From Mobula hypostoma (taxonomy: Eukaryota), in NCBI RefSeq assembly GCF_963921235.1, contig NC_086097.1, positions 109,928,001 to 109,992,000 on the forward strand: a stretch of 64,000 bases of DNA, in the 5' to 3' direction. Below, in pieces: positions 1-51,529 of the stretch. Within the stretch, counting starts at the first letter, position 1; the number at the start of each line of letters is the position of its first letter. A program made the translations under genes and the position numbers. The notes below the pieces were generated by a model. That model did no database searches and was not told the origin of the DNA. It was given only the letters and a program-made list of their open reading frames with translations.

Positions 1-71
1 TGTTTGGGCTAATTTGAGGGCACAAACAGACAAACAGATAAACAGAATGAGAATTTTAGTAATGTATAGAT

Positions 72-578
72 ATGCTGACATTGGAGAGGGTTCAGAGAAG
101 ATTCACAAGAATGAATCCAGGAATGAAAGGGCTACCGTATGAGGAACATCTGGCAGCTCTTGGGCTGTATTCCCTGGAGTTCAGGAGAATGAGGGGGGAT
201 CTCATAGAAACATTCTGAATGTTAAAAGGCCTGATCAGATTAGATATGGCAAAGTTATTTCCCATGGTAGGGGATCCTAGGCCAAGAGGGCACAACTTCA
301 GGATTGAAGTACATCCTTTTAGAACTGAGATGAGGAGAAATTACTTTAGTCAGAGGATGGTAAATCTGTGGAATTTGCTGCCACAAGCAGCTCTGGAGGC
401 CAAGTCATTGGGTGTATTTAAGGTAGAGATAGATAGGTTCTTGATTAGCCAGGGCACCAAAGGGTATGGGATGAAAGCAGAGGAGTGGGAATGACTGGAA
501 GAATTGGATCAGCCCATGACTGAATGGCGGAGCAGACTCAATGGGCCGAATGCTCCTATATCTTATGGTCTTATGGTC
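72..578 (+). mobile_element. CR1 LINE 3' fragment that truncates the foamy-like integrase
   Basis: ORF 219-494 matches the CR1 ORF2 C-terminus (RGHNFRI..FSQRMVNLWNLLP); (CTTATGGT)n tail at about 562-578. Confidence 0.9.
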
Positions 579-1014
579 TATTGAAGGAAAACCGTCAGTT
601 GACATTATTGCAGCTGGGGATGCCAGCATGTGAAATTATAGAGCTTTGGAGTGTAGTGATGCTTGTGGCCTCACTACAAGAATTTGTGGGAACTAACCAT
701 GTATATTCCGTACAAAGATCAGCTATCACAAGAATATACTTATTAGGTTTTCAGTAAGATGGATTGCTTTGGGATGCCAAAATAGACCTATATAATCAAC
801 CTCCCACACCTGCATTGGTGCAGTTGGTTTTATTTGTCTGAGAGGAGATGGTCTTGTGACTGTTCCCTTATGATAGGTCAGACATTCTTTACAATTTGCA
901 ATGAGTTGCTTCCAGTCACTCAACTTCTAAGGCCACCAGTCTAACATTGATAATTTTGCATGCCTGTTCCCACCAGGATTATGTTGGAATTCTCAGTGGG
1001 CATCTTGAAACAAT
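579..1014 (-). pseudogene. pol: Foamy-like integrase remnant (HHCC zinc finger and first part of catalytic core)
   Basis: Reads LFQDAH*EFQH..WWP(930-938)..CKEC(882-893)..PMQVWEVDYIG(786-797), then after a frameshift YILVIADLCTEYTWLVPT..AGIP. Compare PFV IN: QAHNLAH..YWWP..CQQC..IDYIGP..YVLVVVDGMTGFTWLYPT..IAIP. Confidence 0.88.
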
Positions 1015-2095
1015 TATGTGCACTCCCAGCTTTGTGCTCCTAACTCTCTCTATAGAGAAGCCATGTATATGCAGAGATGAGCATCTTCCTGAAGTCCACA
1101 ATACTCTCTTTGGTCTTGTCCATGTTGAAACTTAAGTTGTTGAGCTCTCATCATTCTACCAGCCCTCTACCTCCTCTTTGTGTGTCATCTCGTTGTCGCT
1201 GTTCATGAGACCAACCACTGTTATGTCAGCAGTGAACTTGATGACTCAGTCTGAACTGGATCTAGCAGTGCAGTCATGTGTCAGCAGCATGAACAGCGGT
1301 GGGCGGAGCACGCATCTTGGGGAGCGCCAGTGCCCAGCGTGATGGAGCTAGAGATGTTTCTGCCAACACGGACTGACCTGGGCCTTTCTGTCAAGAAGTC
1401 TAGGATCCAGTTACAAAGAGAGGTGTTGAAACTGTTTATCTACCAGCTTCTGAGGTATGGTCATATTGAATGCTGAGCTGAAGGCAATAAACAAGTCTTG
1501 ACATATAAGGCACCATTTTCCAGGTGGGACAGGATTGAGTGCAGAGGCTACAACATCATTAGTGGACCAACTTGAGCGATAAGTGAACTGGAAATGGTCC
1601 AATGTAGCAGGAAAATTCTATCCCTGACCAGCCGTTCAAAGCACTTCATCATTGTTGAGGTCAGTGCCACTGGATGGTGTCACTGAAACAGGTTTCTGTT
1701 GCTCTCCTGGGTGTCAGGATGATGGTGGCCACCTTGAAGCGTGAGTGGACAGTGGACTGTTCCAGAGAGATATTGAAGATGTTTCTTAGATTCTCCGTTA
1801 ACTGAGCTGTACAGTCCCTCTGCACCCGACCAGGTGTGATGTCAAATCCCGCAGCATTATATCAGTTGATCTTGGCTGGGGTCTTCCTCACATCAACTGC
1901 GACCCGACAGAGTGCCCACTCCTCAGAAGGAAGGGGAGCCTTTCTCGTCGGCACATTGTTCTGTACATCAAAATAAGCATAAGACACATTCTGCCTATCA
2001 GGAAGAGAAGCACCACTGTCATTAACACCCATTGTGGACTTGTAGTCCATTATAATCTGGAGGCCCTGTCACATGTGCCTCATGTCTCCATATTT
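1015..2095 (-). mobile_element. Rex1/Babar-type LINE internal RT fragment, truncated at both ends
   Basis: Minus-strand QGLQIIMDYK, FQFTYR, DFSSAFN-like, GAPQ, KTKExxVDFRK and IERVRSTK-LGVHI motifs; ends abruptly at about 1015 with no 3' tail. Confidence 0.8.
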
Positions 2096-3917
2096 GAGAA
2101 TAGAGCTTAAAAATGCTGTGTTACATTGGGTCATGAAGAAGATGGTTTTGCATCTTCCATGACAGGTAAATTTGTAAGTCATAACTCTCGGGAGCATATT
2201 CCAACTTAAACATTTCATTTTATAGGTGTTTGCCATTCCCCCATTCGTTCACTGGTAATTTGCTGTCATTCTTTAAAGTACAAACTCCATTTGTATAACA
2301 GCGGTTTGTCCCTTGCAATGGCCTTACTGCAATATGTGTATAGAATACCGAAGGCATTGTTCTGAGGCAGTACATTTCTCTTCCGTTGGGGTGAAATTAT
2401 ATGAGTCATAGTGTATAGGGGCTTGTGTTTCTTCCCCCTCATTATAGCAGATGTCTCCAGTAGATTTAGAGAAACAGGAATTTGCAGAACAAGAGATTTT
2501 ATTAGGTCTCTTGTCTGGAGGTCCATTGTTTGCTGAACAGCATTCATCAATTTCTCTTGTGCCTCATAATTTTCTGGGGTAAATACGAAAGGTTTTTTCA
2601 TTTTTCAGTGTACATATGTCCTAGAATGATTTTGACGATGGGTCATAGTCAGGTATGAAAGCTGTAACATAATTCAATAGGCCTAGGGTTAATTTTAAGG
2701 CTTTTAGGGTCTTTAGATATCCTACTAAAGTGAAATTTTGTCTAAAGTCATGTGTTAAACATTGTCCCTGATTGGTAATTGAAAATTTACTTCTGTATGA
2801 TTTTTGTTTATGTTAATTACATAGCCTCTGTCTGTCAGTCTTTAAATGACAATCTCAATCTGTGTGAAACACTCATCCAATGTGTCGGCTGTGCAGTATA
2901 TGATATCCACATATGCACAGATATCTGGTATTCCCTGTATAGTCTGAATAGCTCCTGCTGAAAATATCTGTGGACTATTCTAGAAAACTTGTAGGAATCT
3001 GGTTCTCTGATATTGAGAGCCATCAGATGCTGTAAAAGCATTTTAACCTCTGTCACTTTCAGGGATTGGGTGTGACCAGAGCCAAGAGCCAGATCTTTGC
3101 AAGATTGCTGGGACAAATTAGCTCCTGAGTGTTTATTCAAAATGATGTAGTTGATGACAAATCACTATCATCCATCAGGCTTTGCTACACCAAACATGGG
3201 TGACTTAAACTGAGAAGATTTCTTTCATTAAGACACATTGTATATAGATGGTGACTTCAATTTCCTGTAGGGATTACTTTCCTCTATGCTCGGAATATGC
3301 CACTGTTTCTGCATGGTAAAGGACTGCATCCTACTTTAATTGGTTCAATAACAAACTATATTACAATAGTTAGGATGTTGTTGTAGGTGGTCACAATATT
3401 TGTACAAAATATATTTCAATTTCACTCTGATAATAGACTAGCTGTTTCTGAATATGTACATCTCATTCATTCAGTGCAGTTGCATTGTTAGTTGGTTTGA
3501 TTATAGGACAAATCCAACAGGAAACATCAGGTGTTCCTATTAGAAATAGTGCTTTAGTATAACCTGGGGCAAGCTGGTGTAAAGACTTTATGGCTACTTC
3601 CATTGTTTGAATATCTGTAGGGGAATTTTATAAATTGGGCACTCTACCTTGTTGCAATGTATGCCTACAATTTTAATTTTCCCTGTTAACTCCCCTAATT
3701 TATCACATTGAATAATATCAGAATTTAGCATTGAAATGTCTGCACCTGTATCAAAACAGCAAGGTCGTATAACGAGGTTTGGTCTGCCTAATCCGCGTCC
3801 TATCCCTTCATCCTTCCAGTCTCTGACTTGAAGAATAAAATATTCATCGTATTCAATTTGAAGAGCAGTCAGTGTATTATCCCATTTTTCTGCTATATTA
3901 TTAACACATTCGTAATA
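2096..3917 (-). pseudogene. pol: Foamy-like protease, reverse transcriptase and connection domain
   Basis: FDTGA at 3741-3752; KIVGIH; FLIGTPDVSCW; QKQW; SPMFGVAKPDG followed by TGA TAG TGA (3162-3182, explicable as decayed R-W-R); DLALG[F]WSHPI; YVDIIY (2902-2913, second Asp lost); ITNQGQCLTHDF; LGLLNYVTAFIPDY; LQTRDLIKSLVLQI; YNEGEETQAPIHYDSYNFTPTEEK. Confidence 0.9.
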
Positions 3918-3939
3918 TCAGGAATCTTAATATCAGCCA

Positions 3940-4145
3940 GCATTTTGGTTTCAATTGGCACATTTAATGTCAGAGAAATGTATGCAATATACATCCTGAA
4001 GTTCTTTTTCTTCGCAAACATCCACAAAAACAGAGGACTGCCCCAATGAATGGCAGTTAAATGTTAGAACCCCAAAGTCCTCCCAACTCCCCCCTCCCAC
4101 ACATAAGCAGCAGCAAGACAACAACCCAACCCCTCCCCCACCAGG
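3940..4145 (-). repeat. Short interspersed repeat (LINE-3'-end-like) inserted upstream of the protease
   Basis: Reverse complement resembles the repeat at about 57575-57718 (tcattc..gtggatgt..aggttgt..attaaatgt..ttgaaa). Confidence 0.55.
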
Positions 4146-4799
4146 GCTCTAACATTTATCCTTCATGGCCGGTTTAGCTGCCAATACCCATTATTTGAAT
4201 TATGAGTCCCTTCTCCCTACCAAGGAGGAGATACTACCAGCTAACAAAGTTGTTTAAATACAGTACATTTATTTTTAGTGATACGTGTTTAATTACAGAC
4301 AAAATTCTGAAAACTCATCTAACTGCAGAGGATTTCTATCTTATAAAAGGTTCTCAAATTATAAATGATTTCTAAAACACAGAACAATTCTTATAAGTTA
4401 AAAAAATATGCCAACAAGTTGCAGATAATCGAATGGTCCATCACAATATTCGAAGGTACAGGAATGGATTCTAGCCGCCATGTCTTTCTGTCATTCTTCT
4501 TGCTGTTCCATGACCATTCCTATCCAACTTGACTACTCCCTATATTGATACTGTTTTTTTTCGCTACTTGAGTGACTTCATACTCATGTGAAATTTCATC
4601 AGAAACCTTTTTACACAAGTGGTCTAAAAGCTTCTGGAGATAGAGTTCCCAGATTCCCACAATTAATGCAATGAAACTGGCTCAGAGTGCACAAACCTTC
4701 CAGCTATTAACATATCAGCTATTTGATGTGCTAAGTGATTATATCAATCAGGTCTGTAAGCTTCCTTGAACTAAATAACTTAATCAGTGTTGCCTGGTT

Positions 4800-5330
4800 T
4801 GAAATAGGCCAATTAGTCTTACACTGCATCTCTTGTGCAGTCATCCTTGGTGCCGTAGGCCAGCATCCTGTGTTTTATAGACAGTGCAGTTTGTAAAGCT
4901 GTTCTTTTAACTTCAGACTGATTATTGCTTGCCATTTGCACTAATAACTGAAGACTGGCTGCCATTAATTAATAAAGCTGAACAAAAAATAAGGATTGTA
5001 GCTCAACTTACTCAAAAACAACTGATTTATCTCTACCAGTGTCAGCTGCTATGTCAGAAAACTGAACCTGGCAAAGAAAGAAGGCCTCCCGGTCCTGGAT
5101 AGTGAAAACAACCATTTTCATATTTTTACAGTTGACATTAAATAAATTATACTCAAAATACTTTACGAGATCTAAAATGTGTGAGTTTTGAAGTTAACCA
5201 ATTAATTTCATCTTAGCTTGTATTGTAAAAATTTGGAATACACCTATTTTGGCAGCAGTTGAACAGCTAAATGGTCAAAAATTCTATAAACTCCAATCCT
5301 TCAGCAGGAGTATCAGCAGGATACCAGTCG
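4800..5330 (-). pseudogene. gag: Possible foamy-type Gag capsid-region remnant
   Basis: Frameshifted reading DTPAEGLEFIEFL / STAAKIGVFQIFTIQAKMKLI / GLLSLP..FSDIAADTG / SQSSVISA weakly parallels PFV Gag EPPRNPREIPIWL / NAPAIDGVFPVTTPDLRCRII / MHQLGNVIKGIVDQEG / GQAVVTA; position upstream of pol fits. Confidence 0.45.
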
Positions 5331-5334
5331 AACT

Positions 5335-6650
5335 TTGAGTCATGGCTGAAGGATCATAGTGGAGAACATAACATTGAAGGATACACATTGTATCCGAAGG
5401 ACAGGCAGGTAAGCGGGGTGGGGGGGGGGGGTTGGGATGGCTCTATTGATAAAAGAAATTAAATCAAATCCTTGGAAAGAGGTGACATAGGATCAGAAGA
5501 TCTAGTATCCTTGTGGGTGGAGTTAAGAAAAATCAGATTGTACTGAATCCCAAGGGAGAGGATTTATAGAATGGCTTTTTAGAGCAGCTTGTAGTTGAGC
5601 CCACTAGGGAAAAGACAATTCCAGTCTGGGTGTAATTTAATGAATGAATGAGATTTGATTAGTGAGCTTAAAGTAAAGGAAACCTTAGATTTGCCTGACA
5701 AATCAACTGGAATTTTTTTTGAAGAAAGAACAGGCAGGGTAGACAAAGGATAGTTAAAAGTTGTTTACTTGGATTTTTAAAAGGTATTTGACAAGATGCC
5801 ACACATGAGGCTGCTTAACAGGAGAAGAGCCCATGGCATTACAGGAAAGATACTAGTAGGAAAGATACCGGCCGGAAGCAAAGAGTGGGAAAAATGACAG
5901 CCTTTTCTGCGTGGCTGCCAGTGATTACTGATATTCTGCAAGGGTGGTGTTTGAATTACTTCTTTTTACGTTATAAGTTAGTGATTTGGATGACAGAAAT
6001 GATGGCTTTGTGGCCAAATTTGTGAACAATTCAAAGATAGGTGGTGGGGATTGTAGTTTTCAGGAAGGAGAAATCTGCAGAAGGGCTTAGACAGATTGGG
6101 AGAATGGGCAAAGAAGAGGCAGATAGAATGTAGTGAGGGGACTATTTTCTAAATGGGGACAAAATTTACCACTCTGAGATGCAAGGCGACTTGGGAGACT
6201 TTGTGCAGGATTCTGTGGGTTGAGTTGGTGGTAAGGAAGGGAAATACTATTTTAGCATTCATTTCAAGAGGACTAGAATATAAGAGCAAAGATTTAATGC
6301 CGAGGCATTGGTCAGACTGCACCTAAAACATTGTGAGCAGTTTTGGCCCTTTTTCCAAGAAAAGGTATGCTGGTATTGGAGAGGATGTTCATGTAAATGA
6401 GGAGCATTTGATGGTCTGGTCTGTACTCGCTAAAGTTTAGAAGAATGAAAGGCAATCTCATTGAAATCTATTGAATATTGAAAAGTCTGGACAGAGTAGA
6501 TGTGGGGAAGATGTTTCATACAATAAGTGAGTCTAGAACAGAGATGAGGAGGAATTTCTTTAGCTAGAGGGTGGTGAACCAGTGGAATTTATTGCTGCAG
6601 ATGGCTGTGGAGATCAAGTCATTGAGTATATTTAAAGCGAAGGCTGACAA
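5335..6650 (+). mobile_element. Old, internally deleted CR1 (EN and RT remnants)
   Basis: Degenerate WLK..GYTLY..DRQ, VVYLDF.K.FDK.PH and CR1 3' motifs. Confidence 0.75.
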
Positions 6651-7086
6651 ACAATGAGCCCAGTACCAGCTTCCAGTCCTAGAAACAACCTTCCAAAATC
6701 ATACTATGCATTTCACTATCAACCAAACAGGTATGTAATTAGCCAGTTTTCCATCGATCCCATGCAATCTAACATTCCAGAGCAGTCTGCCATGTGGAAC
6801 CTCGAAGATCTCCCTGAAGTCTATATAAAACACATCTATGACCCAGCCTGAATCAGTTCTCTTGGTCACCTGAAAAGCTCAGATCAAGTTCAAAAGACAT
6901 GACCTCCCATGCTGACTACGCATAATACCTTTCGAAACTTACTCATACTTTATCTCTCAGAATCCTCTCAGTAGCATAGATACCATAGATAGACTTACTG
7001 GCCAATAGCTCCCAGGTACTTTGCTATCCTTTTTAAAAGCACAACATTTGCTATCCTACAGTCTATCAGCACTGCACCCTTGGATA

Positions 7087-8579
7087 ATAGAAACATAGAA
7101 ACATAGAAAATAGGTGCAGGAGTAGGCCATTCGGCCCTTCGAGCCTGCACCGCCATTTATTATGATCATGGCTGATCATCCAACTCAGAACCCAGCCTTC
7201 CCTCCATACCCCCTGACCCCTGTAGCCACAAGGGCCATATCTAACTTCCTTTTAAACATAGCTAATGAACTGGCCTCAACAGTTTGCTGTGGCAGAGAAT
7301 TCCACAGATTCACCACTCTCTGTGTGAAGAAGTTTTTCCTAACCTCGGTCCTAAAAGGCTTCCCCTCTATCCTCAAACTGTGACCCCTCGTTCTAGACCT
7401 CCCCAACATCGGGAACAATCTTCCCGCATCTAGCCTGTCCAATCCCTTTAGGATCTTATACGTTTCAATCAGATCCCCCCTCAATCTTCTAAATTCCAAC
7501 GAGTACAAGCCCAGTTCATCCAGTCTTTCTTCATATGAAAGACCTGCCATCCCAGGAATCAATCTGGTGAACCTTCTTTGTACTCCCTCTATGGCAAAGA
7601 TGTCTTTCCTCAGATTAGGGGACCAAAACTGCACACAATACTCCAGGTGTGGTCTCACCAAGGCCTTGTACAACTGCAGTAGTACCTCCCTGCTCCTTTA
7701 CTCGAATCCTCTCGCTATAAATGCCAGCATACCATTCGCCTTTTTCACCGCCTGCTATACCTGCATGCCCACTTTCAATGACTGGTGTATAATGACACCC
7801 AGGTCTCGTTGCACCTCCCCTTTTCCTAATCGGCCACCATTCAGATAATAATCTGTTTTCCTATTTTTGCCACCAAAGTGGATAACTTCACATTTATCCA
7901 CATTAAATTGCATCTGCCATGAGTTTGCCCACTCACCCAACCTATCCAAGTCACCCTGCATCCTCTTAGCATCCTCCTCACTGCTAACACTGCCACCCAG
8001 CTTTGTGTCATCCGCAAACTTGGAGATGCTGCATTTAATTCCCTCATCCAAGTCATTAATATATATTGTAAACAACTGGGGTCCCAGCACTGAGCCTTGC
8101 GGTACCCCACTAGTCACCGCCTGCCATTCTGAAAAGGTCCCGTTTATTCCCACTCTTTGCTTCCTGTCTGCTAACCAATTCTCCACCCACACCAATACCT
8201 TACCCCCAATACCGTGTGCTTTAAGTTTGCACACTAATCTCCTGTGTGGGACCTTGTCAAAAGCCTTTTGAAAATCCAAATATACCACATCCACTGGTTC
8301 TCCCCTATCCACTCTACTAGTTACATCCTCAAAAAATTCTATGAGATTCGTCAGACATGATTTTCCTTTCACAAATCCATGCTGACTTTGTCCGATCATT
8401 TCACCGCTTTCCAAATGTGCTGTTATCACATCCTTGATAACTGACTCCAGCAGTTTCCCCACCACCGACGTTAGGCTAACCGGCCTATAATTCCCCGGTT
8501 TCTCTCTCCCTCCTTTTTTAAAAAGTGGGGTTACATTAGCCACCCTCCAATCCTCAGGAACTAGTCCAGAATCTAATGA
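7087..8579 (-). mobile_element. Young 5'-truncated CR1 (RT and 3' end)
   Basis: ORFs 7755-8543 and 7185-7673 ([30 protein letters not shown]); (TTTCTATG)n tail; near-identical to about 27870-29356 in opposite orientation. Confidence 0.95.
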
Positions 8580-8686
8580 TGCAAGTTTCTCAGCCAGGGC
8601 TCCAGCAATTTCTTTTACAACCTCCCACTGTGTTCTCAGATAAACCTGGTCAGGCCCTGGAGATTATTATACTTTCATACCTTGTA

Positions 8687-11600
8687 CAATAGACAATAGA
8701 CAATAGACAATAGGTGCAGAAGTAGACCATTCGGCCCTTTGAACCTACACTGCCATTCTGAGATCATGGCTGATCATCTACTATCAATACCCGTTTCCTG
8801 CCTTGTCCCCATAACCCTTGATTCCCCTATCCATAAGATACCTATCTAGCTCCTTCTTGAAAGCATCCAGAAAATTGGCCTCCACTGCCTTCTGAGGCAG
8901 CATGTTCCACAGCTCCACAACTCTCTGGGAGAAGAAGTTCCTCCTCAATTCTGTCCTAAATGACCTACCCCTTATTCTTAAACCATGCCCTCTGGTACTG
9001 GACTGTCCCAGCATCTGGAACATATTTCCTGCCTCTATTTTGTCCAATCCCTTAATAATCTTATATGTCTCAATCAGATGCCCCCTCAATCTCCTTAATT
9101 CCAGTGTGTACAAGCCCAGTCTCTCTATCCTCTCTGCGTAAGACGGTCCGGACATCCCAGGAATTAACCTAGTGATCCTACGCTTCACCTCCTCCACAGC
9201 CAGGATGTCTTTCCTTAACCCTGGAGACCAAAACTGCACACAATACTCCAGGTGTGGTCTCACCAGGGCCCTGTACAAATGCAAAAGGATTTCCTTGCTC
9301 TTGTACTCAATTCCCTTTGTAATAAAGACCAACATTCCATTAGCCTTCTTCACTGCCTGCTGCACTTGCTCATTCACCTTCAGAGACTGATGAACAAGTA
9401 CTCCTAGATCTCTCTGTATTTCACCCTTACCTAACTCCACACCGTTCAGATAATAATCTGCCTTCTTGTTCTTGCACCCAAAGTGAATAACCTCACACTT
9501 ATTCACATTAAACGCCACCTGCCAAGTTTCTGCCCACTCACCCAGCCTATCCAAGTCACCTTGAACTCACCTAACATCCTCATCACAAGTCACACTGCCA
9601 CCCAGCTTAGTATCATCAGCAAACTTGCTGATGTTATTCACAATGCCTTCCTCTAAATCATTGACGTAAATCGTAAACAGCTGTGGTCCCAATACCGAGC
9701 CCTGTGGCACCCCACTAGTCACCACCTGCCATTCCGAGAAACACCCATTCACTGCTACCGTTTGCTTTCTATCTGCCAACCAGTTTTCTATCCATGTCAA
9801 TATCCTCCCCCCAATGCCATGAGCTCTGATTTTACCCACCAATCTCCTATGTGGTACCTTATCGAATGTCTTCTGAAAGTCAAGGTACACCACATCCACT
9901 GGAACTCCCGCGTCTATCTTCCTGGTTACATCCTCGAAAAACTCCAATAAATTAGTCAAGCATGATTTGCCCTTGGTAAGTCCATGCTGGCTCGGCCCAA
10001 TCCTATCACTGCTATCAAGATATGCTGCTATTTCATCTTTAATAATGGACTCTAGCATCTTCCCCATTACTGATGTTAGGCTAACAGGGCGATAGTTCTC
10101 TGTTTTCTCCCTCCCTCCTTTCTTAAAAAATAGGATAACATTAGTCATTCGCCAATCCTCAGGAACTGATCCTGAATCTAAGGAACATTAGAAAATGATC
10201 ACCAATGCATCCACAATTTCCAGAGCCACCTCCTTTAGTACCCTAGGATGCAGACCATCTGGACCTGGGGATTTGTTCGCCTTCAGTCCCATCAGTCTAC
10301 TCATCACCATTTCCTTCCTAATGTCAATCTGTTTCAGTTCCTCTGTTACCCTATGTCCTTGGCCCATCCATACATCTGGCAGATTGCTTGTGTCTTCCCT
10401 AGTGAAGACAGATCCAAAGTACTTATTAAATTCATCTGCCATTTCTCTGTTTCCCATAACAATTTCTCCCAATTCATTCTTCAAGGGCCTAATATTGCTC
10501 TTAACTATCTTCCTTCTCTTCACATACCTAAAAAAACTTTTGCTATCCTCCTTTATATTCCTAGCTAGCTTGCGTTCATACCTCATTTTTTTCTCCATGT
10601 ATTGCCTCTTTAGTTAAGTTCTGTTGCTCCTTAAAAGTTTCCCAATCATCCATCTTCCCACTCACCTTAGCTCTGTTATACTTCTTCTTTTACAATGCTA
10701 TGCTATCTCTGACTTCCTTTGTCAATCACTATGGCCACTTTCCCCCCTTTGAATCCTTCCTTCTCCAGGGGATGAACTGATTTTGCCCCTTGAGCATTAT
10801 TCCCAAGAATACCTGCCATTGATGTTCCAATGTCTTTTCTGCTAGGATATCCGACCAGTCAACTTTGGCCAGCTCCTCCCTCATGGCTCCATAGTCTCCT
10901 TTGTTCAACTGCAATACTGACACTTCTGATCTGCCCTTATCCCTCTCAACTTGCAGATAAAAACTTATCGTATTATGATCGCTACCTCCTAATGGCTCCT
11001 TTACTTCAAGATCACTTCTCAAATCCTGTTCATTGCACAACACTAAATCCAGAATAGCCTTATCCCTGGTTGGCTCTCGTACAAGCTGCTCCAAAAATGC
11101 ATCTCGTAGGCACTCTACAAACTCCCTATCCTGGGGTCCAGTACCAACCTGATTTTCCCAGTTCACCTGTATGTTGAAATCCCCCATAACAACTGTGACA
11201 TTTCCTTTGCCACATGCCATTGTTAACTCCCTATTCAACTTGCACCCAATATCCATGTTACTATTTGGGGGCCTGTAGATAACACCTATTAGGGTCTTTT
11301 TGCCCTTACTGTTCCTCAGTTCTATCCACACTGATTCTACTTCTCCTGATTCTATGTCCCCCCTTGCAAGGGACTGAATCTCATTCCTCACCAACAGGGC
11401 CACCCCACCCCATCTGCCCACCTTTCTGTCCCTTCGATAGCATGTATACCCCTGTACATTCAATTCCCAGGTCTGATGCCCCTGCAGCCATGTCTCCGTT
11501 ATCCCAACAACATCATAGTTACCCATTCACACCTGAGCTTCAAGCTCATCCGCCTTATTTCTGACACTTCGTGCATTCAGATATAGAATTTTTAACCCAT

Positions 11601-12760
11601 TTCTCCTCTCTCTGTTTAAATCGCTGCCTATTGTGCATAACCAAGCTCCCCGAACTCTCACCGGGCTATACGCCCCTTGAATTTTGTTGTCCTTCTTAAA
11701 TTTACTTACTCTTTCTGCACATTTAACTCCATGCTCCATCAGACCATCCCTCTGCACATGTATCCTCCTTATCACTCGTTCTGCCTCACCCTTCTCTACT
11801 TCACACTTAATATTCCGGAACCGTGTAGTCCCCACCTGTCCTTTATACTTCATCTCGCTATCCTCTCTCACATTCTGGATCCCTGCCCCCTGCAAATTTA
11901 GTTTAAACCACGCCCCCCCCCCAAGCAGCACTAGCAAACTTTCCTGCAAGAATGTTAGTACCCCTCCAGTTCAGGTGTAAACAGTCCTGTCGGAACAGAT
12001 CCCACCTTCCCTGGAACAAAGCCCAGTTATCTAAAAACCTGAAGCCCTCCCTCCTGCACCATCCTCTCAGCCACATATTGATCTGTATAACCCTTCTGTT
12101 CCTCGCCTCACTCGCACGTGGCACAGGTAGCAATCCTGAGATTGTTACCCTGGAGGTCCTGCCCTTCAACTTCGCACCTAACTCCCTGAACTCTCTACAC
12201 AGGACCCCCTCACTCTTCCTACCCATGTCGTTGGTCCCTACATGGACCACAACATCTGGATTCTTGCCCTCCCTCTCTAGAATAACCTGCACCCGATCTG
12301 AGATGTTCCGGACCCCGGCACCAGGGAGGCAACATACCATCCGAGACTCCCGATCTCCCCCACAAAATCTCCTATCTGGCCCCCTGACTATAGAATCCCC
12401 TATCACTACCGCTGTCCTCTCTTCCCTCCTCCCCTTCTGAATAGAGGGTCCAACCTCAGCGCCAGAGACAGGACCACTGCAACTTGTTCCTGGTAGGTCA
12501 TCCCCACCAACAGTAGCCAAAACGGTATACTTATTGTTGATGGGAATGGCCACAGGGGTGCTCTGCTCTCTCTGTCTGCTCCCCCTCCATCTCCTGACAG
12601 TCACCCAGTTGCCTACCTCCGTCTTTTCGGTGTGACTACCTCCCGACAACTCTTATCTATCTCTGTCTCTGCCTCCCGAATGATCCGTAGTTCATCCAGC
12701 TCCAGCTCCAATTCCCTAACTCGCTCTGATAGGAGCTGCAGCTGGATGCACCTTCCAGTA
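8687..12760 (-). mobile_element. Near full-length CR1 with ORF1 (SGNH esterase) and disrupted ORF2 (APE endonuclease and RT)
   Basis: ORFs 11903-12649, 11527-11949 (ILYLNARS), 10729-11526 (ITETWL, GDFN, SDH), 10188-10598, 9567-10148 and 8784-9554; (ATTGTCT)n tail at about 8687-8712. Confidence 0.95.
11903..12649 (-). pseudogene. CR1 ORF1 SGNH/GDSL esterase domain
   Basis: VIGDSIVRG, CLPGA, HVGTND and D(C)LH blocks. Confidence 0.85.
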
Positions 12761-13305
12761 CCTTCTCTGCTGTAATGTGGACTAACCTCAAGATCTCCCC
12801 AATTCATTTTCCCAGTTCTAATGTCTTCATGTCTTTCTCCATAGTAAGAATATAACAGAAATATCCACTAAAGACCTCACCCCTCTCCTGTGGCTTCACA
12901 CAAAGGTCTTTCCTTTGGTCTTTGAGGGGCCCGATTCTCTCTGGTTACGATTTTTTCCTTAATATAGTTATAAAATATTTTTGATTGTACGTAGTCTTCT
13001 CTGCCAATTCCTTTTGATTTGCCCTTTTGATTTCCTTCTTGAGTAAACTCTCGCATCCCCTACACTCTTCCAGGGATTCTTCAGATCCTGGCTGTATCTA
13101 CCAGAACCATGCCTACTTTTCCTTGGCAAGGTCCTCAATATTCCCTTGTCATCCAGCGTTCCCTGCACGTTCTAGCCTTGCTCTTTTGTCGAACAGGAAT
13201 ACGCAGCCCTTGTGCTGTCATTATCTCAATTTAAGTAGCCTCTGCTTGCCTGTGGTCCCTTTGCCAGCAAACAGCCTTGTCCAAGCTTTGCTTGTGCCTG
13301 TCTTA

Positions 13306-16300
13306 CATAGAACATAGAATAGTACAGCACAGTACAGGCCCTTTAGCCCACAATGTTGTGCCGACCCTCAAACCCTGCCTCCCATATAAGCCCCCACATT
13401 AAATTCCTCCATATACCTGTCTAGTAGTCTCTTAAGCTTCACTAGTGTATCTGCCTCCACCACTGACTCAGGCAGTGCATTCCACGCACCAACTACTCTC
13501 TGAGTGAAAAACCTTCCTCTAATATCACCCTTGAACTTCCCACCCCTTACCTTAAAGCCATGTCCTCTTCTATTGAGCAGTGGTGCCCTGGAGAAGAGGC
13601 ACTGGCTATCCACTCTTACCTACTCCTTTTATTATCCTGTACACCTCCATCATGTCTCCTCTCATTCTCCTTCTCTCCAAAGAGTAAAGCCCTAGCTCCC
13701 TTAATCTCTGATCATAATGCATACTCTCTGAACAAGGCAGCATCCTGGTAAATCTCCTCTGTACCCTTTCCAATGCTTCCACATCTTTCCTATAGTGAGG
13801 CGACCAGAACTGGACACAGTACTCCAAATGTGGCCTAACCAGAGTTTTATAGAGCTGCATCATTACATCGCGACTCTTAAACTCTATCCCTCGACTTATG
13901 AAAGCTAACACACCATAAGCTTTCTTAACTACCCTATCCACCTGTGAGGCAACTTTCAGGGATCTGTGGACATGTACCCCCAGATCCCTCTGCTCCTCCA
14001 CACTACCAAGTATTCTGCCACGTACTTTGTACTCTGCCTTGGAGTTTGTCCTTCCAAAGTGTACCACCTCACACTTCTCCGGGTTGAACTCCATCTGCCT
14101 CTTCTCAGCCCACTTCTGCATCCTATCAATGTCTCTCTGCAATCTTTGACAATCCTCTACACTATCTACAACACCACCAACCTTTGTGTCATCTGCAAAC
14201 TTGCCAACCCAGCCTTCTACCCCTACATCCAGGTCGTTAATAAAAATCACGAAAAGTAGAGGTCCCAGAACAGATCCTTGTGGGACACCACTAGTCACAG
14301 CCCTCCAATCTGAATGTACTCCCCCACCACGACCCTCTGCCTTCTGCAGGCAAGCCAATTCTGAATCCACCTGGCCAAACTTCCCTGGATCCCATGCCTT
14401 CTGACTTTCTGAATAAGCTTACCATGTGGAATCTTGTCAAATGCCTTACTAGCTAAAATTTGCAAGGGTAAAAGGACCCTGATGGCGGTTAACAGCTGCA
14501 GGGATGTGGACTACAAATTACAACTGGAAATAGAAAAGGCTTGTCAGAAGGGCAGTGTTATGATAATTGTGGGGGATTTTAACATGCTAGTGGATTGGGA
14601 AAATCAGGTCGGCACTGGATCTCAAGAGAGAGAACTTGTAGAATGTCTGCGAGATGGCTTTTTAGAACAGCTGTTTGCTGAGCCCACTAGGGGATCGGCT
14701 GTACTGGATTGGGTATTGTGTAATGAACCGGAGGTGATTAGAGAGATTGAAGTGAAGGAACCCTTAGGAGGCAGTGATCATAACATGATTGAGTTCACTG
14801 TGACATTTGAAAAAGAGAAGCCGAAATCTGATGTGTCGGTATTTCAGTGGAGTAAAGGAAATTACAGTGGCATGAGAGAGGAACTGGCCAAAGTTGACTG
14901 GAAAGGGACACTGGCGGGAAAGACGGCAGAGCAGCAGTGGCTGGAGTTTATGTGAGAAGTGAGGAAGGTGCAAGACAGTTATATTCCAGAAAAGAAGAAA
15001 TTTTCGAATGGAAAAAGGATGCAACTGTGGTTGACAAGAGAAGTCAAAGCCAAAGTTAAAGCAAAGGAGAGGGCATACAAGGAAGCAAAAATTAGTGGGA
15101 AGACAGAGGATTGGGAAGTTTTTAAAACCTTACAAAAGGAAACTGAGATGTTCATTAAGAGGGAAAAGATTAACTATGAAAGGAAGCTGGCAAATAATAT
15201 CAAAGAGGATACTAAAAGCTTTTTCAAGTATATAAAGAGTAAGAGACAGGTGAGAGTAGATATAGGACCGATAGAAAATGATGCCGGAGAAATTGTAATG
15301 GGAGATAAGGAGATGGCAGAGGAACTGAACGAGTATTTTGCATCAGTCTTCACTGAGGAAGACATCAGCAATATACTGGACACTCAAGGATGGCAGGGAA
15401 GAGAAGTGTGCGCAGTCACAATTACAACACAGAAAGTACTCTGGAAGCTGAATAGTCTAAAGGTAGATAAATCACCAGGCCCAGGTGGAATGCACCCTCG
15501 TGTTCTGAAGGAAGTGGCTGTGGAGACTGCAGAGGCATTAGCGATGATCTTTCAAAAGTCGATAGATTCTGGCATGGTTCCGGAGGACTAGAAGACTGCA
15601 AATGTCACTCCGCTATTTAAGAGGGGGCAAGGAAGCAAAAAGGAAATTATAGACCTGTTAGCTTGACATCGGTGGTTGGGAGGTTGTTGGAGTCGATTGT
15701 CAAGGATGAGGTTACAGAGTACCTGGAGGCATATGACAAGATAGGCAGAACTCAGCATGGATTCCTTAAAGGAAAATCCTGCCTGACAAACCTATTACAA
15801 TTTTTTGAGGAAATTACCAGTAGGCTAGACAAGGGAGATGCAGTGGATGTTGTATATTTGGATTTTCAGAAGGCCTTTGACAAGGTGCCACACATGAGGC
15901 TACTTAACAAGATAAGGGCGCATGGAATTACAGGAAAGTTACATACGTGGATAAAGCGTTGGCTGATTGGCAGGAAACAGAAAGTGGGAATAAAGGGATC
16001 CTATTCTGGTTGGCTGCCGGTTACCAGTGGTGTTCCACAGGGATCAGTGTTGGGGCCGCTTCTTTTTACATTGTACGTCAATGATTTGGATTATGGAATA
16101 GATGGCTTTGTGGCTAAGTTTGCTGACAATACGAAGATAGGTGGAGGGGCTGGTAGTGCTGAGGAAACAGAGAGTCTGCAGAGAGACTTGGATAGATTGG
16201 AAGAATGGGCAAAGAAGTGACAAATGACGTACAATGTTGGAAAGTGTATGGTTCTGCACTTTGGCAGAAGAAATAAATGGGGCAGAGTATTATTTAAATG

Positions 16301-50900: not shown

Positions 50901-51529
50901 TTTCTTGACATCTTTACTGCTCACTATCTTAGATTTATTTCTGTTTTCCCCTTCCTCCGCTCTATCATTCCGGTTCCCATCCCCCTGCCAAGTTAGTTTA
51001 CACCCTCCCTAACAGCTCTATTAAACTTTCCTGCCAGGATATTGGTCCCCTTCGGGTTCAGGTGTAACCCATCCTTTTTGAATTGGTCATACTTCCCCCA
51101 GAAGAGATCCCAATTATCCAAGAATCTGAAGCCCTGCCCCCTACACCAGTCTCTCAGCCACGCATTCATCTGCCTGATCTGACTATTCTTGCCTCGCTAG
51201 CACATGGCACAGGTAGCAATCCCGAGATTACTACCCTTGAGGTCCTGCTTCTCAGCTTCCTTCCTAACTCCTGGAAATCTCTCTTCAGGACCTCCTCCTT
51301 TGTCCTATCTATGTCATTGGTACCAACATGTACCAAGACAACTGGCTGCTCACCCTCCCACTTTAGAATATTCTGGACCCGATCCGAGACATCCCATACC
51401 CTGGCACCTGGGAGGCAACACACCATGCGGGTATCTCTGTCAGGCTCACAGAATCTCCTGTCTGTTCCCCTGACTATGGAATCCCCTACGACTACCGCAT
51501 TTCTCTTCTCCCTCCTTCTCTCCTGCACA
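47951..51529 (-). mobile_element. CR1 with partial ORF1 esterase and frameshifted ORF2
   Basis: ORFs 51166-51528 (GDSIVRG, HVGTND), 50382-50924, 49730-50398 and 48141-49733. Confidence 0.95.

What the first reader, a model, noticed from the sequence alone, without database searches (positions are those of the whole stretch)
579..3917. Hidden endogenous foamy-like retrovirus pol in a probable ray or shark genome
Seen: translating the minus strand across frameshifts gives, in order, protease (CFDTGADISML, KIVGIH, FLIGTPDVSCW), RT (QKQW, SPMFGVAKPDG then TGA-TAG-TGA, DLALG.WSHPI, NSPQIF, AYVDIIY, GYVIN, ITNQGQCLTHDF, LGLLNYVTAFIPDY), connection (LQTRDLIKSLVLQI, YNEG..APIHYDSYNFTPTEEK) and integrase (AH..H..WWP..CKEC..VDYIG..YILVIADLCTEYTWLVPT). 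Knowledge, recalled: these track prototype foamy virus Pol (KTIHG, LLSPTDVPW, PQKQY, KPDGRWR, DLANGFWAHPI, YVDDIY, ITKEGRGLTDTF, LGLLNF, LEERLPEQRLVIKV, YYNETGKKPIMYLNYVF, IDYIGP, TWLYPT) much better than Gypsy or orthoretroviral Pol. Inference: an ancient spumaretrovirus-like integration. Endogenous foamy-like viruses are known from cartilaginous fishes, so novelty would be at lineage or locus level.
Basis: partly seen in the sequence, partly recalled or inferred. Interest (0 to 1): 0.88.

Follow-up and report, generated by a model that had tools for sequence, protein, structure and literature searches.

The report
Decayed foamy-like retrovirus fossil, gag deleted
This is a very old, broken copy of a foamy-virus-like endogenous retrovirus in a cartilaginous-fish genome; such fossils are already known from sharks, but its family gives a clear view of how these ancient relatives of foamy viruses were built.

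Summary
RT and integrase similarity is significant and specific to foamy viruses. X-stopped frames hit only foamy PR-RT (E 4e-13, 2.6e-8) and PFV integrase in the PDB. A family RT profile scores foamy RT at 5e-22 and Ty3/HIV at 1e-4. Feline foamy virus Pol is the third-best of 1.84 billion representatives. In an RT tree the family is sister to exogenous foamy viruses (98/94). The protease call rests on motifs and position only.

The provirus spans about 13.3 kb (window -8229 to 5122), with 1.1-kb LTRs 21.6% diverged, so it is roughly 10^8 years old. RNase H and the integrase N-terminus are replaced by a LINE fragment. A 4.5-kb insertion splits integrase, and the 5' LTR end and PBS are lost.

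The copy belongs to a multicopy family. Full members carry a gag with the spumavirus Gag central domain, ending in an in-frame TAG before pro-pol. The window copy is from a subfamily sharing one in-frame 1.49-kb gag deletion.

Verdict: a new member of a known kind, of moderate interest.

The parts
1..582 (+). 3' part of a CR1-type LINE. It is the right end of a ~4.55-kb block of nested insertions that splits the integrase gene. It is not part of the provirus itself.
   Evidence: tblastn of the window's own CR1 (7185-8663, RVT_1 E=1.3e-34) hits 69-479(+) at 63% identity over 137 aa, E=6.6e-54. ERV homology to paralogs stops at 583 and resumes at window -3968, with adjacent coordinates in copy C21a.
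583..1012 (-). Integrase: end of the zinc-binding N-terminal region and first part of the catalytic core, with stops and at least one frameshift. The rest of the core and the C-terminal SH3 domain lie left of the window at about -3968 to -4390.
   Evidence: PFV integrase residues 69-135 match nt 983-783, E=0.017. FFV Pol 833-883 and 893-922 match 938-786 and 738-649. blastn to paralogs covers 583-1012. For the left flank, PFV IN scores E=8.4e-11 and Pfam SH3_11 scores E=2.6e-4.
1013..2087 (-). Fragment of a non-LTR (LINE) element occupying the place of RNase H and the integrase N-terminus. About 640 nt of ERV sequence, equivalent to FFV Pol ~590-810, is missing here.
   Evidence: There is no homology to any ERV paralog between 1012 and 2088. 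tblastn of a LINE ORF carrying RVT_1 hits 1494-1168 and 1141-1085, 38% over 121 aa, E=5.8e-15. Paralogs do carry RNase H (FFV 634-721).
2088..3314 (-). Reverse transcriptase (fingers, palm, thumb, connection). It reads in three frames, with 5 frame changes and 11 in-frame stops between 3314 and 2172.
   Evidence: Foamy PR-RT chains 7o0h/7o0g/7o24 score E=4.1e-13 (nt 3087-2797) and 2.6e-8 (nt 2788-2351). FFV Pol 190-500 is collinear.
3463..3763 (-). Protease region with one frameshift. The DTGA motif is at 3752-3741, a KIVGIH flap-like motif follows, and the LIGTPD motif is in ORF 3463-3627.
   Evidence: The motifs are in ORFs 3594-3917 and 3463-3627, 5' of RT. No significant similarity was found. 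The best hit is a non-significant alignment of a paralog's protease to PFV Pol 16-77 (E=0.75).
3764..3919 (-). Remnant of the N-terminal part of gag, fused in frame to the protease by the subfamily's 1.49-kb deletion. The junction lies between 3763 and 3762.
   Evidence: In gag-bearing copies the same reading frame runs on from this stretch into 1,491 nt that the window lacks. The junction is identical in 4 of 4 deleted copies examined base by base.
3949..4148 (.). Unrelated repeat that replaces the last ~140 nt of the 5' LTR, the primer-binding site and the start of gag.
   Evidence: It matches an unrelated place at 88% identity on the other strand (C5:158624544-158624699). Paralogs carry LTR end, PBS-like sequence and leader here instead.
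4150..5122 (-). 5' LTR, truncated at its 3' end. Its partner, the 1,105-nt 3' LTR, lies left of the window at -7125 to -8229.
   Evidence: Self-comparison gives 4155-5106 against -8079..-7136, 75.1% over 981 nt. A global alignment gives p=0.216 and K2P=0.258 over 937 sites. The ends come from an alignment with four paralog LTRs.

Best explanation
Window 583-5122 (minus strand) is the 5' two-thirds of one ancient, dead provirus of a foamy-like endogenous retrovirus (FLERV) family in a cartilaginous-fish genome.

The whole provirus runs from window -8229 to 5122. Its order is 5' LTR, a short gag remnant, protease, RT, [RNase H lost], integrase, a ~2.7-kb remnant of an env-sized region with no detectable homology, and 3' LTR.

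The element entered the germ line by reverse transcription and integration roughly 10^8 years ago. It has since decayed neutrally, acquiring frameshifts, stops, three unrelated insertions and three internal losses.

It was already defective when it integrated. It belongs to a subfamily that shares one in-frame 1,491-nt deletion. That deletion removes most of gag, including the spumavirus-type Gag central domain and the in-frame TAG that ends gag in full-length members. It joins the first ~70 Gag codons directly to pro-pol.

Because copies with this same junction sit at many unrelated loci with their own LTRs, I infer that the deleted genome was copied repeatedly. It presumably used Gag, and perhaps Env, supplied in trans by full-length relatives.

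Shown here: homology, anatomy, the deletion junction and the multiplicity of copies. Inferred: trans-complementation, read-through of the TAG in full-length members, and the absolute age.
For: Foamy specificity:
- The only relevant PDB hits of the three X-stopped frames are foamy PR-RT and PFV integrase: 5 of 6, 5 of 5 and 5 of 6 hits.
- The integrase core left of the window gives PFV IN 8.4e-11 against HIV-1 IN 2.2e-4.
- An RT profile of the window plus 5 paralogs gives foamy PR-RT 5.4e-22 (81 bits), against Ty3 1e-4, HIV-1 1.1e-4 and 7sr6 1.5e-4.
- Among 1.84e9 representatives there are 748 hits at E<=1e-3 and 13 at <=1e-10. The top three are a Scyliorhinus torazame gene model, an unnamed Gag-Pro-Pol and feline foamy virus Pol at 4e-17.
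- In the careful ML tree of 62 RT rows, the family scores 100/99. It joins the S. torazame fragment at 99/90 and P0003 at 100/94. It is sister to 10 exogenous-type foamy Pols at 98/94, and is split from gamma-like and gypsy rows at 100/99.
- Gag_FV_central (PF20672) is found in 7 of 10 gag-bearing copies at E<=0.5 and in 4 of 10 at E<=0.01. One copy scores 32.9 bits, above the gathering score of 30.
- The only PDB hits of that gag piece are the PFV Gag central domain entries 5m1h and 5m1g.
- There is no Cys-His box in 10 copies.

Anatomy:
- The LTR pair is shown.
- Pieces are collinear with four 20-kb paralog regions.
- FFV Pol is collinear along the locus.

Deletion:
- The 1,491-nt segment is contiguous with leader and protease in at least 12 of 40 scored copies.
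- The junction is identical in 4 of 4 deleted copies and lies between short direct repeats, in frame.
- With the window as query, 14 rows cross the junction and 4 begin at it.
- With a deleted copy's LTR-to-protease stretch as query, 8 of 40 rows cross the junction and 23 of 40 stop at it.
- Of the 11 paralog loci, 5 are clearly deleted, 1 is probably deleted, 4 carry gag and 1 is unknown.
Against: - No ERV-L, ERV-S, epsilon, SnRV, lokiretrovirus, coelacanth or amphibian foamy-like sequence was in the tree. Placement within class III is therefore shown only against what I could fetch.
- The protease has no significant similarity to anything.
- No env, accessory gene or dUTPase was detected in the post-pol region of 6 copies.
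- The PBS-like sequence does not look like the tRNA-Lys site of mammalian foamy viruses. That comparison is from recall only.
- The in-frame TAG between gag and pro differs from the separate pol mRNA of true foamy viruses.
- A target-site duplication could not be recognised. The two LTRs are therefore tied to one integration only by collinearity.
- Deleted and gag-bearing copies are intermixed in the RT tree: the window groups at 97/90 with three gag-bearing copies and one deleted copy. A single origin of the deleted lineage is not shown.
Confidence: 0.85

Rival explanations
1. It is a class III endogenous retrovirus outside the foamy lineage (ERV-L, ERV-S or XtERV-S-like) that merely shares conserved Pol motifs with foamy viruses.
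For: - gag ends in an in-frame stop followed by pro-pol in the same frame. This matches what is described for the ERV-L-related frog element XtERV-S (passages of PMC8278194).
- No foamy-type env or accessory gene was detected.
- No ERV-L-type sequence was in my tree.
Against: - The Pfam spumavirus Gag central domain is found in 7 of 10 gag-bearing copies.
- PFV Gag structures are the only PDB hits of that gag piece.
- No dUTPase was seen in 6 copies.
- Feline foamy virus Pol ranks third of 1.84e9 representatives, ahead of every other named retrovirus.
- The family is sister to foamy viruses at 98/94.
Confidence: 0.1
2. The gag deletion was not carried by a replicating genome. It arose after integration, either repeatedly at the same short repeat or once followed by segmental duplication or gene conversion between loci.
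For: - The deletion lies between short direct repeats, which could favour recurrence.
- Deleted and gag-bearing copies are intermixed in the RT tree.
Against: - The junction is identical in 4 of 4 copies examined.
- The deleted copies lie on different contigs. Outside the provirus they share only common repeats with the window locus.
- Two deleted copies (the window and C21b) have their own LTR pairs.
- Retroviral recombination between co-packaged genomes would also intermix them.
Confidence: 0.1
3. It is a Ty3/gypsy-type LTR retrotransposon (Metaviridae) rather than a retrovirus.
For: Many of the 150 best representative hits are gypsy-type polyproteins, at E 1e-11 and weaker.
Against: - There is a 55-bit gap between foamy RT and Ty3 RT.
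- Paralogs carry a retroviral-type RNase H matching FFV 634-721.
- The integrase C-terminal SH3_11 domain is present.
- Gypsy rows are split off at 100/99.
- The gag carries a foamy-type central domain.
Confidence: 0.01

Closest known systems
Exogenous foamy viruses (Spumaretrovirinae: feline, bovine, equine, simian and prototype foamy virus)
   Same: - The Pol order PR-RT-RNase H-IN is collinear with FFV and PFV Pol.
- RT, integrase core and the integrase SH3 domain are closest to foamy proteins.
- Full family members carry the Gag central domain.
- There is no Cys-His box.
- The LTR is long, about 1.1 kb.
- The family is the sister group in the RT tree.
   Different: - In full members gag is followed by an in-frame TAG and pro-pol in the same frame. 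Foamy viruses instead have pol in another frame, translated from its own mRNA (established knowledge; also stated in PMC8278194).
- No Pfam foamy protease (Spuma_A9PTase) or foamy Env match was found.
- No tas/bet-like genes were recognised.
- The PBS-like sequence is not Lys-like (recalled comparison).
- RT identity to FFV is only 32-37%.
Foamy-like ERVs of fishes and amphibians: CmiFLERV of the elephant shark and teleost/salamander FLERVs (PMC5512871), teleost FLERVs (PMC5210030), ERV-Spuma.0-Sca of the small-spotted catshark (PMC10699275)
   Same: - It is the same kind of object: multicopy, degraded, foamy-related pol in a fish genome.
- The host class (Chondrichthyes) is already on record.
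- It lies in one clade with teleost gene models and a C. milii gene model carrying foamy-like RT.
   Different: - I could not compare sequences with the published elements, because they are not in the protein collections as named entries.
[quoted passage not shown]
- For the catshark and lamprey elements no Gag domain was found.
- Teleost gag showed no detectable homology.
- Here a foamy-type Gag central domain is detectable.
- LTR divergence here (K2P 0.26) is far larger than the values reported for C. milii ERVs (0.024-0.033). Those are not foamy-like elements.
XtERV-S / ERV-L (class III ERVs; PMC8278194)
   Same: gag and pro-pol are in one frame separated by a stop codon. Gag lacks a Cys-His box.
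   Different: - ERV-L-type elements have a dUTPase after integrase and an MHR-bearing Gag related to ERV-L.
- No dUTPase was found here.
- The gag matches the spumavirus model.
Deleted, non-autonomous ERV variants that outnumber or rival their full-length relatives, such as mouse IAP I-delta-1 and ETn/MusD (recalled, not looked up)
   Same: An internally deleted provirus with intact LTRs is present at many loci alongside full-length relatives.
   Different: Here the deletion removes gag but keeps pro-pol. Activity is long extinct and trans-complementation is only inferred.

Membership tests
Foamy-like ERV / Spumaretrovirinae-related lineage | RT and IN cluster with foamy viruses to the exclusion of other retroelements | tested here: met
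   PDB and representative-library rankings. In the tree the family is sister to foamy viruses at 98/94, and the foamy/FLERV side is split from gamma-like and gypsy rows at 100/99. ERV-L, epsilon, SnRV, beta, delta and lenti were not in the tree.
Foamy-like ERV / Spumaretrovirinae-related lineage | Foamy-type Gag: conserved central domain and no Cys-His zinc knuckle | tested here: met
   This is met for the family, not for the window copy, where the region is deleted. PF20672 is found in 7 of 10 gag-bearing copies, best E=5.9e-8 at 32.9 bits. PFV Gag 5m1h/5m1g are the only PDB hits. There are 0 CX2CX4HX4C matches in 10 copies.
Spumaretrovirinae (true foamy viruses) | Pol made from its own spliced mRNA and start codon, not as a Gag-Pol fusion | tested here: not met
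   The gag C-terminus reads in the same frame into the protease in 5 of 10 copies without a shift. At one site 5 of 10 copies have a stop (TAG verified in 3). The other 5 have CAG, TGG, TGG, GAG or a Tyr codon, each one change from TAG. This is an inference about the ancestor drawn from decayed copies.
Spumaretrovirinae (true foamy viruses) | Foamy-type Env (Pfam Foamy_virus_ENV) and accessory genes tas/bet with an internal promoter | tested here: inconclusive
   An env-sized shared region of about 3.6 kb exists. No Pfam family was found in it in 6 copies. Decay may hide it.
Spumaretrovirinae (true foamy viruses) | Foamy protease family (Pfam Spuma_A9PTase) | tested here: not met
   No Pfam hit was found for the window or for three paralog protease ORFs, even at E<=5. 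Only the DTGA, flap-like and LIGTxD motifs are present.
ERV-L (class III) | dUTPase downstream of integrase; no env | tested here: not met
   No dUTPase was found in frames downstream of IN in 6 copies. A ~3.6-kb shared post-pol region is present.
ERV-L (class III) | RT clusters with ERV-L | not tested
   No ERV-L sequence could be fetched. The only dUTPase-bearing protein in the panel is a lungfish model that falls outside the foamy/FLERV clade.
Metaviridae (Ty3/gypsy) | RT clusters with gypsy elements; gypsy-type RNase H | tested here: not met
   Ty3 RT scores 25 bits against 81 bits for foamy RT. Gypsy rows are split off at 100/99. The RNase H of paralogs matches FFV 634-721.
LTR provirus (any retrovirus) | Two LTRs in direct orientation (TG...CA), a PPT before the 3' LTR, a PBS after the 5' LTR, and a target-site duplication | tested here: inconclusive
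   The LTR pair, the TG..CA ends and a purine run before the 3' LTR are seen. The PBS is lost in the window copy but a PBS-like TGG... sequence is seen in paralogs. No recognisable target-site duplication was found.

The most novel reading that the evidence does not exclude
This chondrichthyan family, together with an intact unnamed Gag-Pro-Pol relative (P0003), represents a lineage that branches next to true foamy viruses. It already has the foamy-type Gag core but still makes Pol as a Gag-Pro-Pol product, by read-through of an in-frame TAG or by direct fusion. If so, the separate pol mRNA that defines Spumaretrovirinae would be a later invention. The family also spawned a gag-deleted, stop-less 'Pol-only' parasite genome that spread through the germ line on the Gag of its full-length relatives.
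Probability: 0.3. Interest if true: 0.65.

Novelty: new member of a known kind. Interest (0 to 1): 0.45.

Why it matters
Foamy-like ERVs are the main evidence that retroviruses are hundreds of millions of years old and arose in the sea. Cartilaginous fishes are the least documented hosts.

For the elephant shark, published work found pol only. For the catshark element it found no Gag domain (passages read).

This locus adds little by itself, because it is a wreck. Its family is more useful. It has hundreds to thousands of fragments. It has a gag that still matches the spumavirus Gag central domain. It appears to have an in-frame stop between gag and pro-pol. It also includes a subfamily with a clean in-frame gag deletion.

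These features bear on two questions. One is when the unusual Pol expression of foamy viruses arose. The other is whether defective genomes parasitised early retroviruses.

Tried and rejected
1. Pfam on 16 separate ORF fragments and on three X-stopped frames of window 1-5400 found nothing relevant. The copy is too decayed for generic RT or IN models.

2. My first reading was that the whole family lacks gag, with the LTR ~330 nt from the protease motif. I rejected it. Many copies break at one point just 5' of DTGA. The 1,491 nt found there in copy C9 is an integral, family-wide segment with a foamy Gag domain.

3. I considered that the deleted form came from a spliced pol mRNA. I rejected that too. 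The segment does not begin with GT or end with AG in the copies examined, and it is flanked by short direct repeats.

4. The protease alignment A2 was misaligned by MAFFT and was dropped. Single protease ORFs gave no PDB or Pfam hit.

5. An ORF-density comparison of the post-pol region across 9 copies was not discriminating.

6. Pfam on the post-pol frames of 6 copies found no env, dUTPase or accessory family.

7. A word-index search with the RT alignment among longer proteins returned nothing at E<=1e-8, because candidates were crowded out.

8. No target-site duplication could be called.

9. Three look-ups of earlier findings returned nothing.

10. The PBS tRNA assignment was left open. The Phe/His-like resemblance is from recall only.
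Full report
**Observation**

Generic domain models see nothing. Pfam gave no relevant family for 16 ORF fragments. It also gave none for the three frames of window 1-5400 read with X at stops.

Direct comparison with solved structures is decisive. Against 177,635 distinct PDB sequences:
- The frame holding nt 3087-2797 hits only foamy-virus protease-RT chains among retroelements. 7o0h/7o0g/7o24 score E=4.1e-13 to 6e-13 and 7kse/7ksf score 3e-12 to 9e-12. That is 5 of 6 hits; the sixth is a phage protein at 0.4.
- The frame holding nt 2788-2351 hits the same five chains and nothing else (2.6e-8 to 2.8e-3).
- The frame holding nt 983-783 hits PFV integrase (0.017; 5 of 6 hits).

No HIV, MLV or Ty3 chain appeared, although the PDB holds hundreds. 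tblastn with feline and prototype foamy virus Pol is collinear along the locus. For FFV:

| FFV Pol residues | Window position |
|---|---|
| 190-220 | 3224-3132 |
| 254-347 | 3081-2797 |
| 358-500 | 2785-2351 |
| 833-883 | 938-786 |
| 893-922 | 738-649 |
| 947-1011 | -3976..-4170 |
| 1087-1122 | -4251..-4367 |

The protease is the weak point. It has no significant hit with the window ORF or with unbroken paralog ORFs. It is called from the DTGA, flap-like and LIGTxD motifs and from its position.

**Anatomy of the locus**

The window lies in a 3.48-Gb assembly. I fetched the 20 kb to its left and four 20-kb paralog regions and compared them.

A direct repeat, window 4155-5106 against -8079..-7136, marks the LTRs (75.1% over 981 nt). 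Aligned with paralog LTRs:
- The 3' LTR runs from -7125 to -8229 (1,105 nt). It has TG...CA ends and is preceded by a purine run.
- The 5' LTR runs from 5122 to about 4150.

The provirus therefore spans about 13.35 kb, and only its 5' part is in the window.

Inside it:
- (a) 3949-4148 is an unrelated repeat. It replaces the LTR's last ~140 nt, the primer-binding site and the start of gag.
- (b) 1013-2087 is a LINE RT fragment (38% to a LINE ORF with RVT_1, E=5.8e-15). It sits where about 640 nt encoding RNase H and the integrase N-terminus should be. Paralogs do have RNase H.
- (c) A clean 4.55-kb block of nested repeats separates window 583 from -3968. Its right end is the CR1 3' end at window 1-582.
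- (d) The integrase core and C-terminal SH3 domain follow at -3968..-4390. PFV IN scores 8.4e-11 against HIV-1 IN at 2.2e-4, and Pfam SH3_11 scores 2.6e-4.
- (e) About 2.7 kb of a post-pol region follows. It lacks ~3.7 kb that copies C18 and C21a share.

RT alone needs 5 frame changes and carries 11 stops. No target-site duplication could be recognised.

**The family**

The RT-protease stretch has at least 40 scored matches out of 2,970 first-look candidates, at 69-80% identity. An LTR-leader query gave 3,408 candidates. All copies examined are broken.

I first thought the family lacked gag, because in the window, C21a, C21b and C9 the LTR lies only a few hundred bases from the protease. That was wrong. 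Many copies break at one point just 5' of DTGA. In copy C9, 1,491 nt are found there. Searching with that segment gave 319 candidates. At least 12 of the 40 scored are contiguous from leader through the segment into the protease, at the family's usual 70-76% identity.

In eight further copies the reading frame of the 'leader' continues into this segment. The segment's end reads into the protease.

Pfam finds the spumavirus Gag conserved central domain (PF20672) in it:
- 7 of 10 copies match at E<=0.5.
- 4 of 10 match at E<=0.01.
- One copy scores 5.9e-8 and 32.9 bits, above the gathering score of 30.
- Three copies have no hit.

The only PDB hits of that piece are the PFV Gag central-domain entries 5m1h and 5m1g. 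They are individually weak, at 0.22 and 1.2. No Cys-His knuckle occurs in any forward frame of the 10 copies.

About 22 codons before the deletion's 3' edge, one codon position is informative:
- It is a stop in 5 of 10 copies. TAG is verified in 3, and the other 2 read as X.
- In the other five it is CAG, TGG, TGG, GAG or a Tyr codon. Each is one change from TAG.
- In 5 of 10 copies the frame runs from that site to the D-x-G-A-D motif without a shift.

I infer that full-length members had gag-TAG-pro-pol in one frame. This is the arrangement of gamma- and epsilonretroviruses and of the class III frog element XtERV-S (passages of PMC8278194). It is not the arrangement of true foamy viruses.

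The closest intact relative in the protein library, P0003, is an unnamed 1,687-aa ORF on a 10,956-nt contig. It has a Gag-like, G/Q/R-rich N-terminus without a Cys-His box, fused in frame to protease-RT-RNase H-IN-SH3_11.

**The window copy is a deletion variant**

The window, C18, C21a and C21b (4 of 4 examined base by base) share the same junction. It lies between window 3763 and 3762, after the second base of a proline codon on both sides, so the deletion is in frame. It sits between short direct repeats of the GACC(N)TGC type. The segment does not start with GT or end with AG, so I rejected a spliced-RNA origin.

The deletion removes the Gag central domain and the TAG. It joins the first ~70 Gag codons to pro-pol. 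A Met codon stands at the expected start in at least five copies by eye, but a pattern search caught only one.

Counts of deleted and gag-bearing forms:

| Query | Rows crossing the junction (deleted) | Rows stopping or starting at it (gag-bearing) |
|---|---|---|
| Window RT-protease stretch | 14 | 4 begin at it |
| Deleted copy's LTR-to-protease stretch | 8 of 40 | 23 of 40 stop at it |

Among the 11 paralog loci, 5 are clearly deleted, 1 is probably deleted, 4 carry gag and 1 is undetermined.

Deleted copies lie on different contigs. Outside the provirus they share only common repeats with the window locus. Two of them have their own LTR pairs. I therefore infer that the deleted genome was itself reverse-transcribed and integrated many times, using proteins from full-length relatives.

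Against a single origin, deleted and gag-bearing copies are intermixed in the RT tree. The window groups at 97/90 with three gag-bearing copies and one deleted copy. Recombination between co-packaged genomes, recurrence at the repeat, or noise from decayed rows could each explain this. I could not tell which.

**Placement**

An RT-palm profile of the window plus five paralogs scores foamy PR-RT at 5.4e-22 (81 bits). The next best scores are Ty3 at 1e-4, HIV-1 RT at 1.1e-4 and 7sr6 at 1.5e-4 (203 sequences at E<=10).

Against 1.84 billion representatives it finds 748 proteins at E<=1e-3 and 13 at <=1e-10. The top three are:
- a Scyliorhinus torazame gene model with an embedded RT fragment (1.1e-20);
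- P0003 (2.3e-17);
- feline foamy virus Pol (4e-17).

For a tree I read the window RT through its breaks with X, inside a script only. I chained paralog HSPs against that row. I added 51 reference RT regions:
- 10 foamy-type Pols;
- teleost, C. milii, S. torazame and H. perlo models;
- gamma-like ERVs;
- gypsy elements.

The careful ML tree (LG+C20+F+G4, 397 columns) gives these supports (UFBoot/SH-aLRT):

| Grouping | Support |
|---|---|
| Family (window plus paralogs) | 100/99 |
| Family plus S. torazame fragment | 99/90 |
| That group plus P0003 | 100/94 |
| That clade sister to the foamy viruses | 98/94 |
| Foamy/FLERV side split from gamma-like plus gypsy rows | 100/99 |

The quick tree agreed.

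Limits:
- No ERV-L, ERV-S, epsilon, SnRV, lokiretrovirus, beta, delta or lenti rows were included, and no coelacanth, amphibian, reptile or bird foamy ERVs. I could not fetch them.
- Several paralog rows contain wrong-frame stretches.
- One row (L005) has a long branch.

The Gag_FV_central matches are independent support for foamy affinity.

**Host and age**

An intact 302-aa CR1 RT ORF at 7755-8663 has its best named matches in Hypanus sabinus (73-75%) and Callorhinchus milii (67-70%). Turtles and birds follow at 50-63%, and unnamed records reach 89-92%. The host is a cartilaginous fish. I did not try to name it.

The LTR pair differs at 21.6% of 937 aligned sites. K2P is 0.258, or 0.243 without CpG sites. 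The age depends on the rate assumed:

| Rate (per site per year) | Age |
|---|---|
| 2e-9 | 64 Myr |
| 1e-9 | 129 Myr |
| 0.5e-9 (used for catshark in PMC10699275) | 258 Myr |

The 2.2e-10 rate assumed for the elephant shark in PMC4422223 would give an age older than the host class, so it cannot apply here. Paralog divergence of 20-31% is of the same order, as expected for one ancient burst.

**What is known**

Foamy-like ERVs are on record for the elephant shark (PMC5512871; passages) and the small-spotted catshark (PMC10699275; passages). The elephant-shark ERVs of PMC4422223 are SnRV- and epsilon-like, not foamy-like (text read).

Those papers report pol only, or no Gag domain, for chondrichthyan elements. 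They report no detectable gag homology for teleost ones (PMC5210030). Supplementary sequences were not seen, so I cannot say whether this family equals a published one.

A full-text search for 'foamy-like' with 'readthrough' found 3 papers. The two listed do not concern fish FLERVs. That single search is the only basis for saying I found no prior description of an in-frame gag stop in a foamy-like ERV.

**Verdict**

The finding is real and correctly interpreted. It is one more decayed member of a known kind. The added value lies in the family-level features described above.

Noticed in passing
window 7078-10184 (minus strand): Two adjacent CR1-type LINE copies, 7078-8579 and 8680-10184, are 73.7% alike. 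The first has an intact 302-aa RT ORF (RVT_1 E=1.3e-34) and a 170-aa C-terminal ORF. It matches copies elsewhere at 92-94% identity, so this CR1 family was active fairly recently.
   Followed up: partly
L018:912-1213 (inside paralog copy C18, not in the window): A ~300-nt element is present at 93-98% identity in at least 33 scored places of the genome. It looks like a young, abundant SINE-like repeat.
   Followed up: no
left of the window, about -11877 to -11010 (L014), plus strand: A second, unrelated retroelement RT gives weak tblastn hits to several retroviral and FLERV-like Pols (21-29% identity). It was not characterised.
   Followed up: no
protein P0003 (unnamed, 1,687 aa, on a 10,956-nt contig): This is an uninterrupted Gag-like-protease-RT-RNase H-integrase ORF. 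It is the closest intact relative of the family and could come from a young or even exogenous foamy-like virus. The tool that would fetch its contig was closed.
   Followed up: partly
protein P0180 (unnamed, 1,156 aa, on a 10,295-nt contig): This is a full foamy-type Pol with the Spuma_A9PTase domain, only 57% identical to feline foamy virus over RT-RNase H. It branches at the base of the exogenous foamy viruses in the tree and is possibly an undescribed foamy virus.
   Followed up: no
protein P0002 (Scyliorhinus torazame gene model named PR domain-containing protein 11): The model is a chimera. A foamy-like RT fragment (RVT_1) is fused to a PRDM/SET protein, which is most likely an annotation artefact caused by an ERV fragment.
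   Followed up: no
window 8001-14000 and 48001-52000: There are long stretches of strongly negative GC skew (-0.33 to -0.41 in 2-kb windows). The first overlaps the CR1 copies. The cause was not examined.
   Followed up: no
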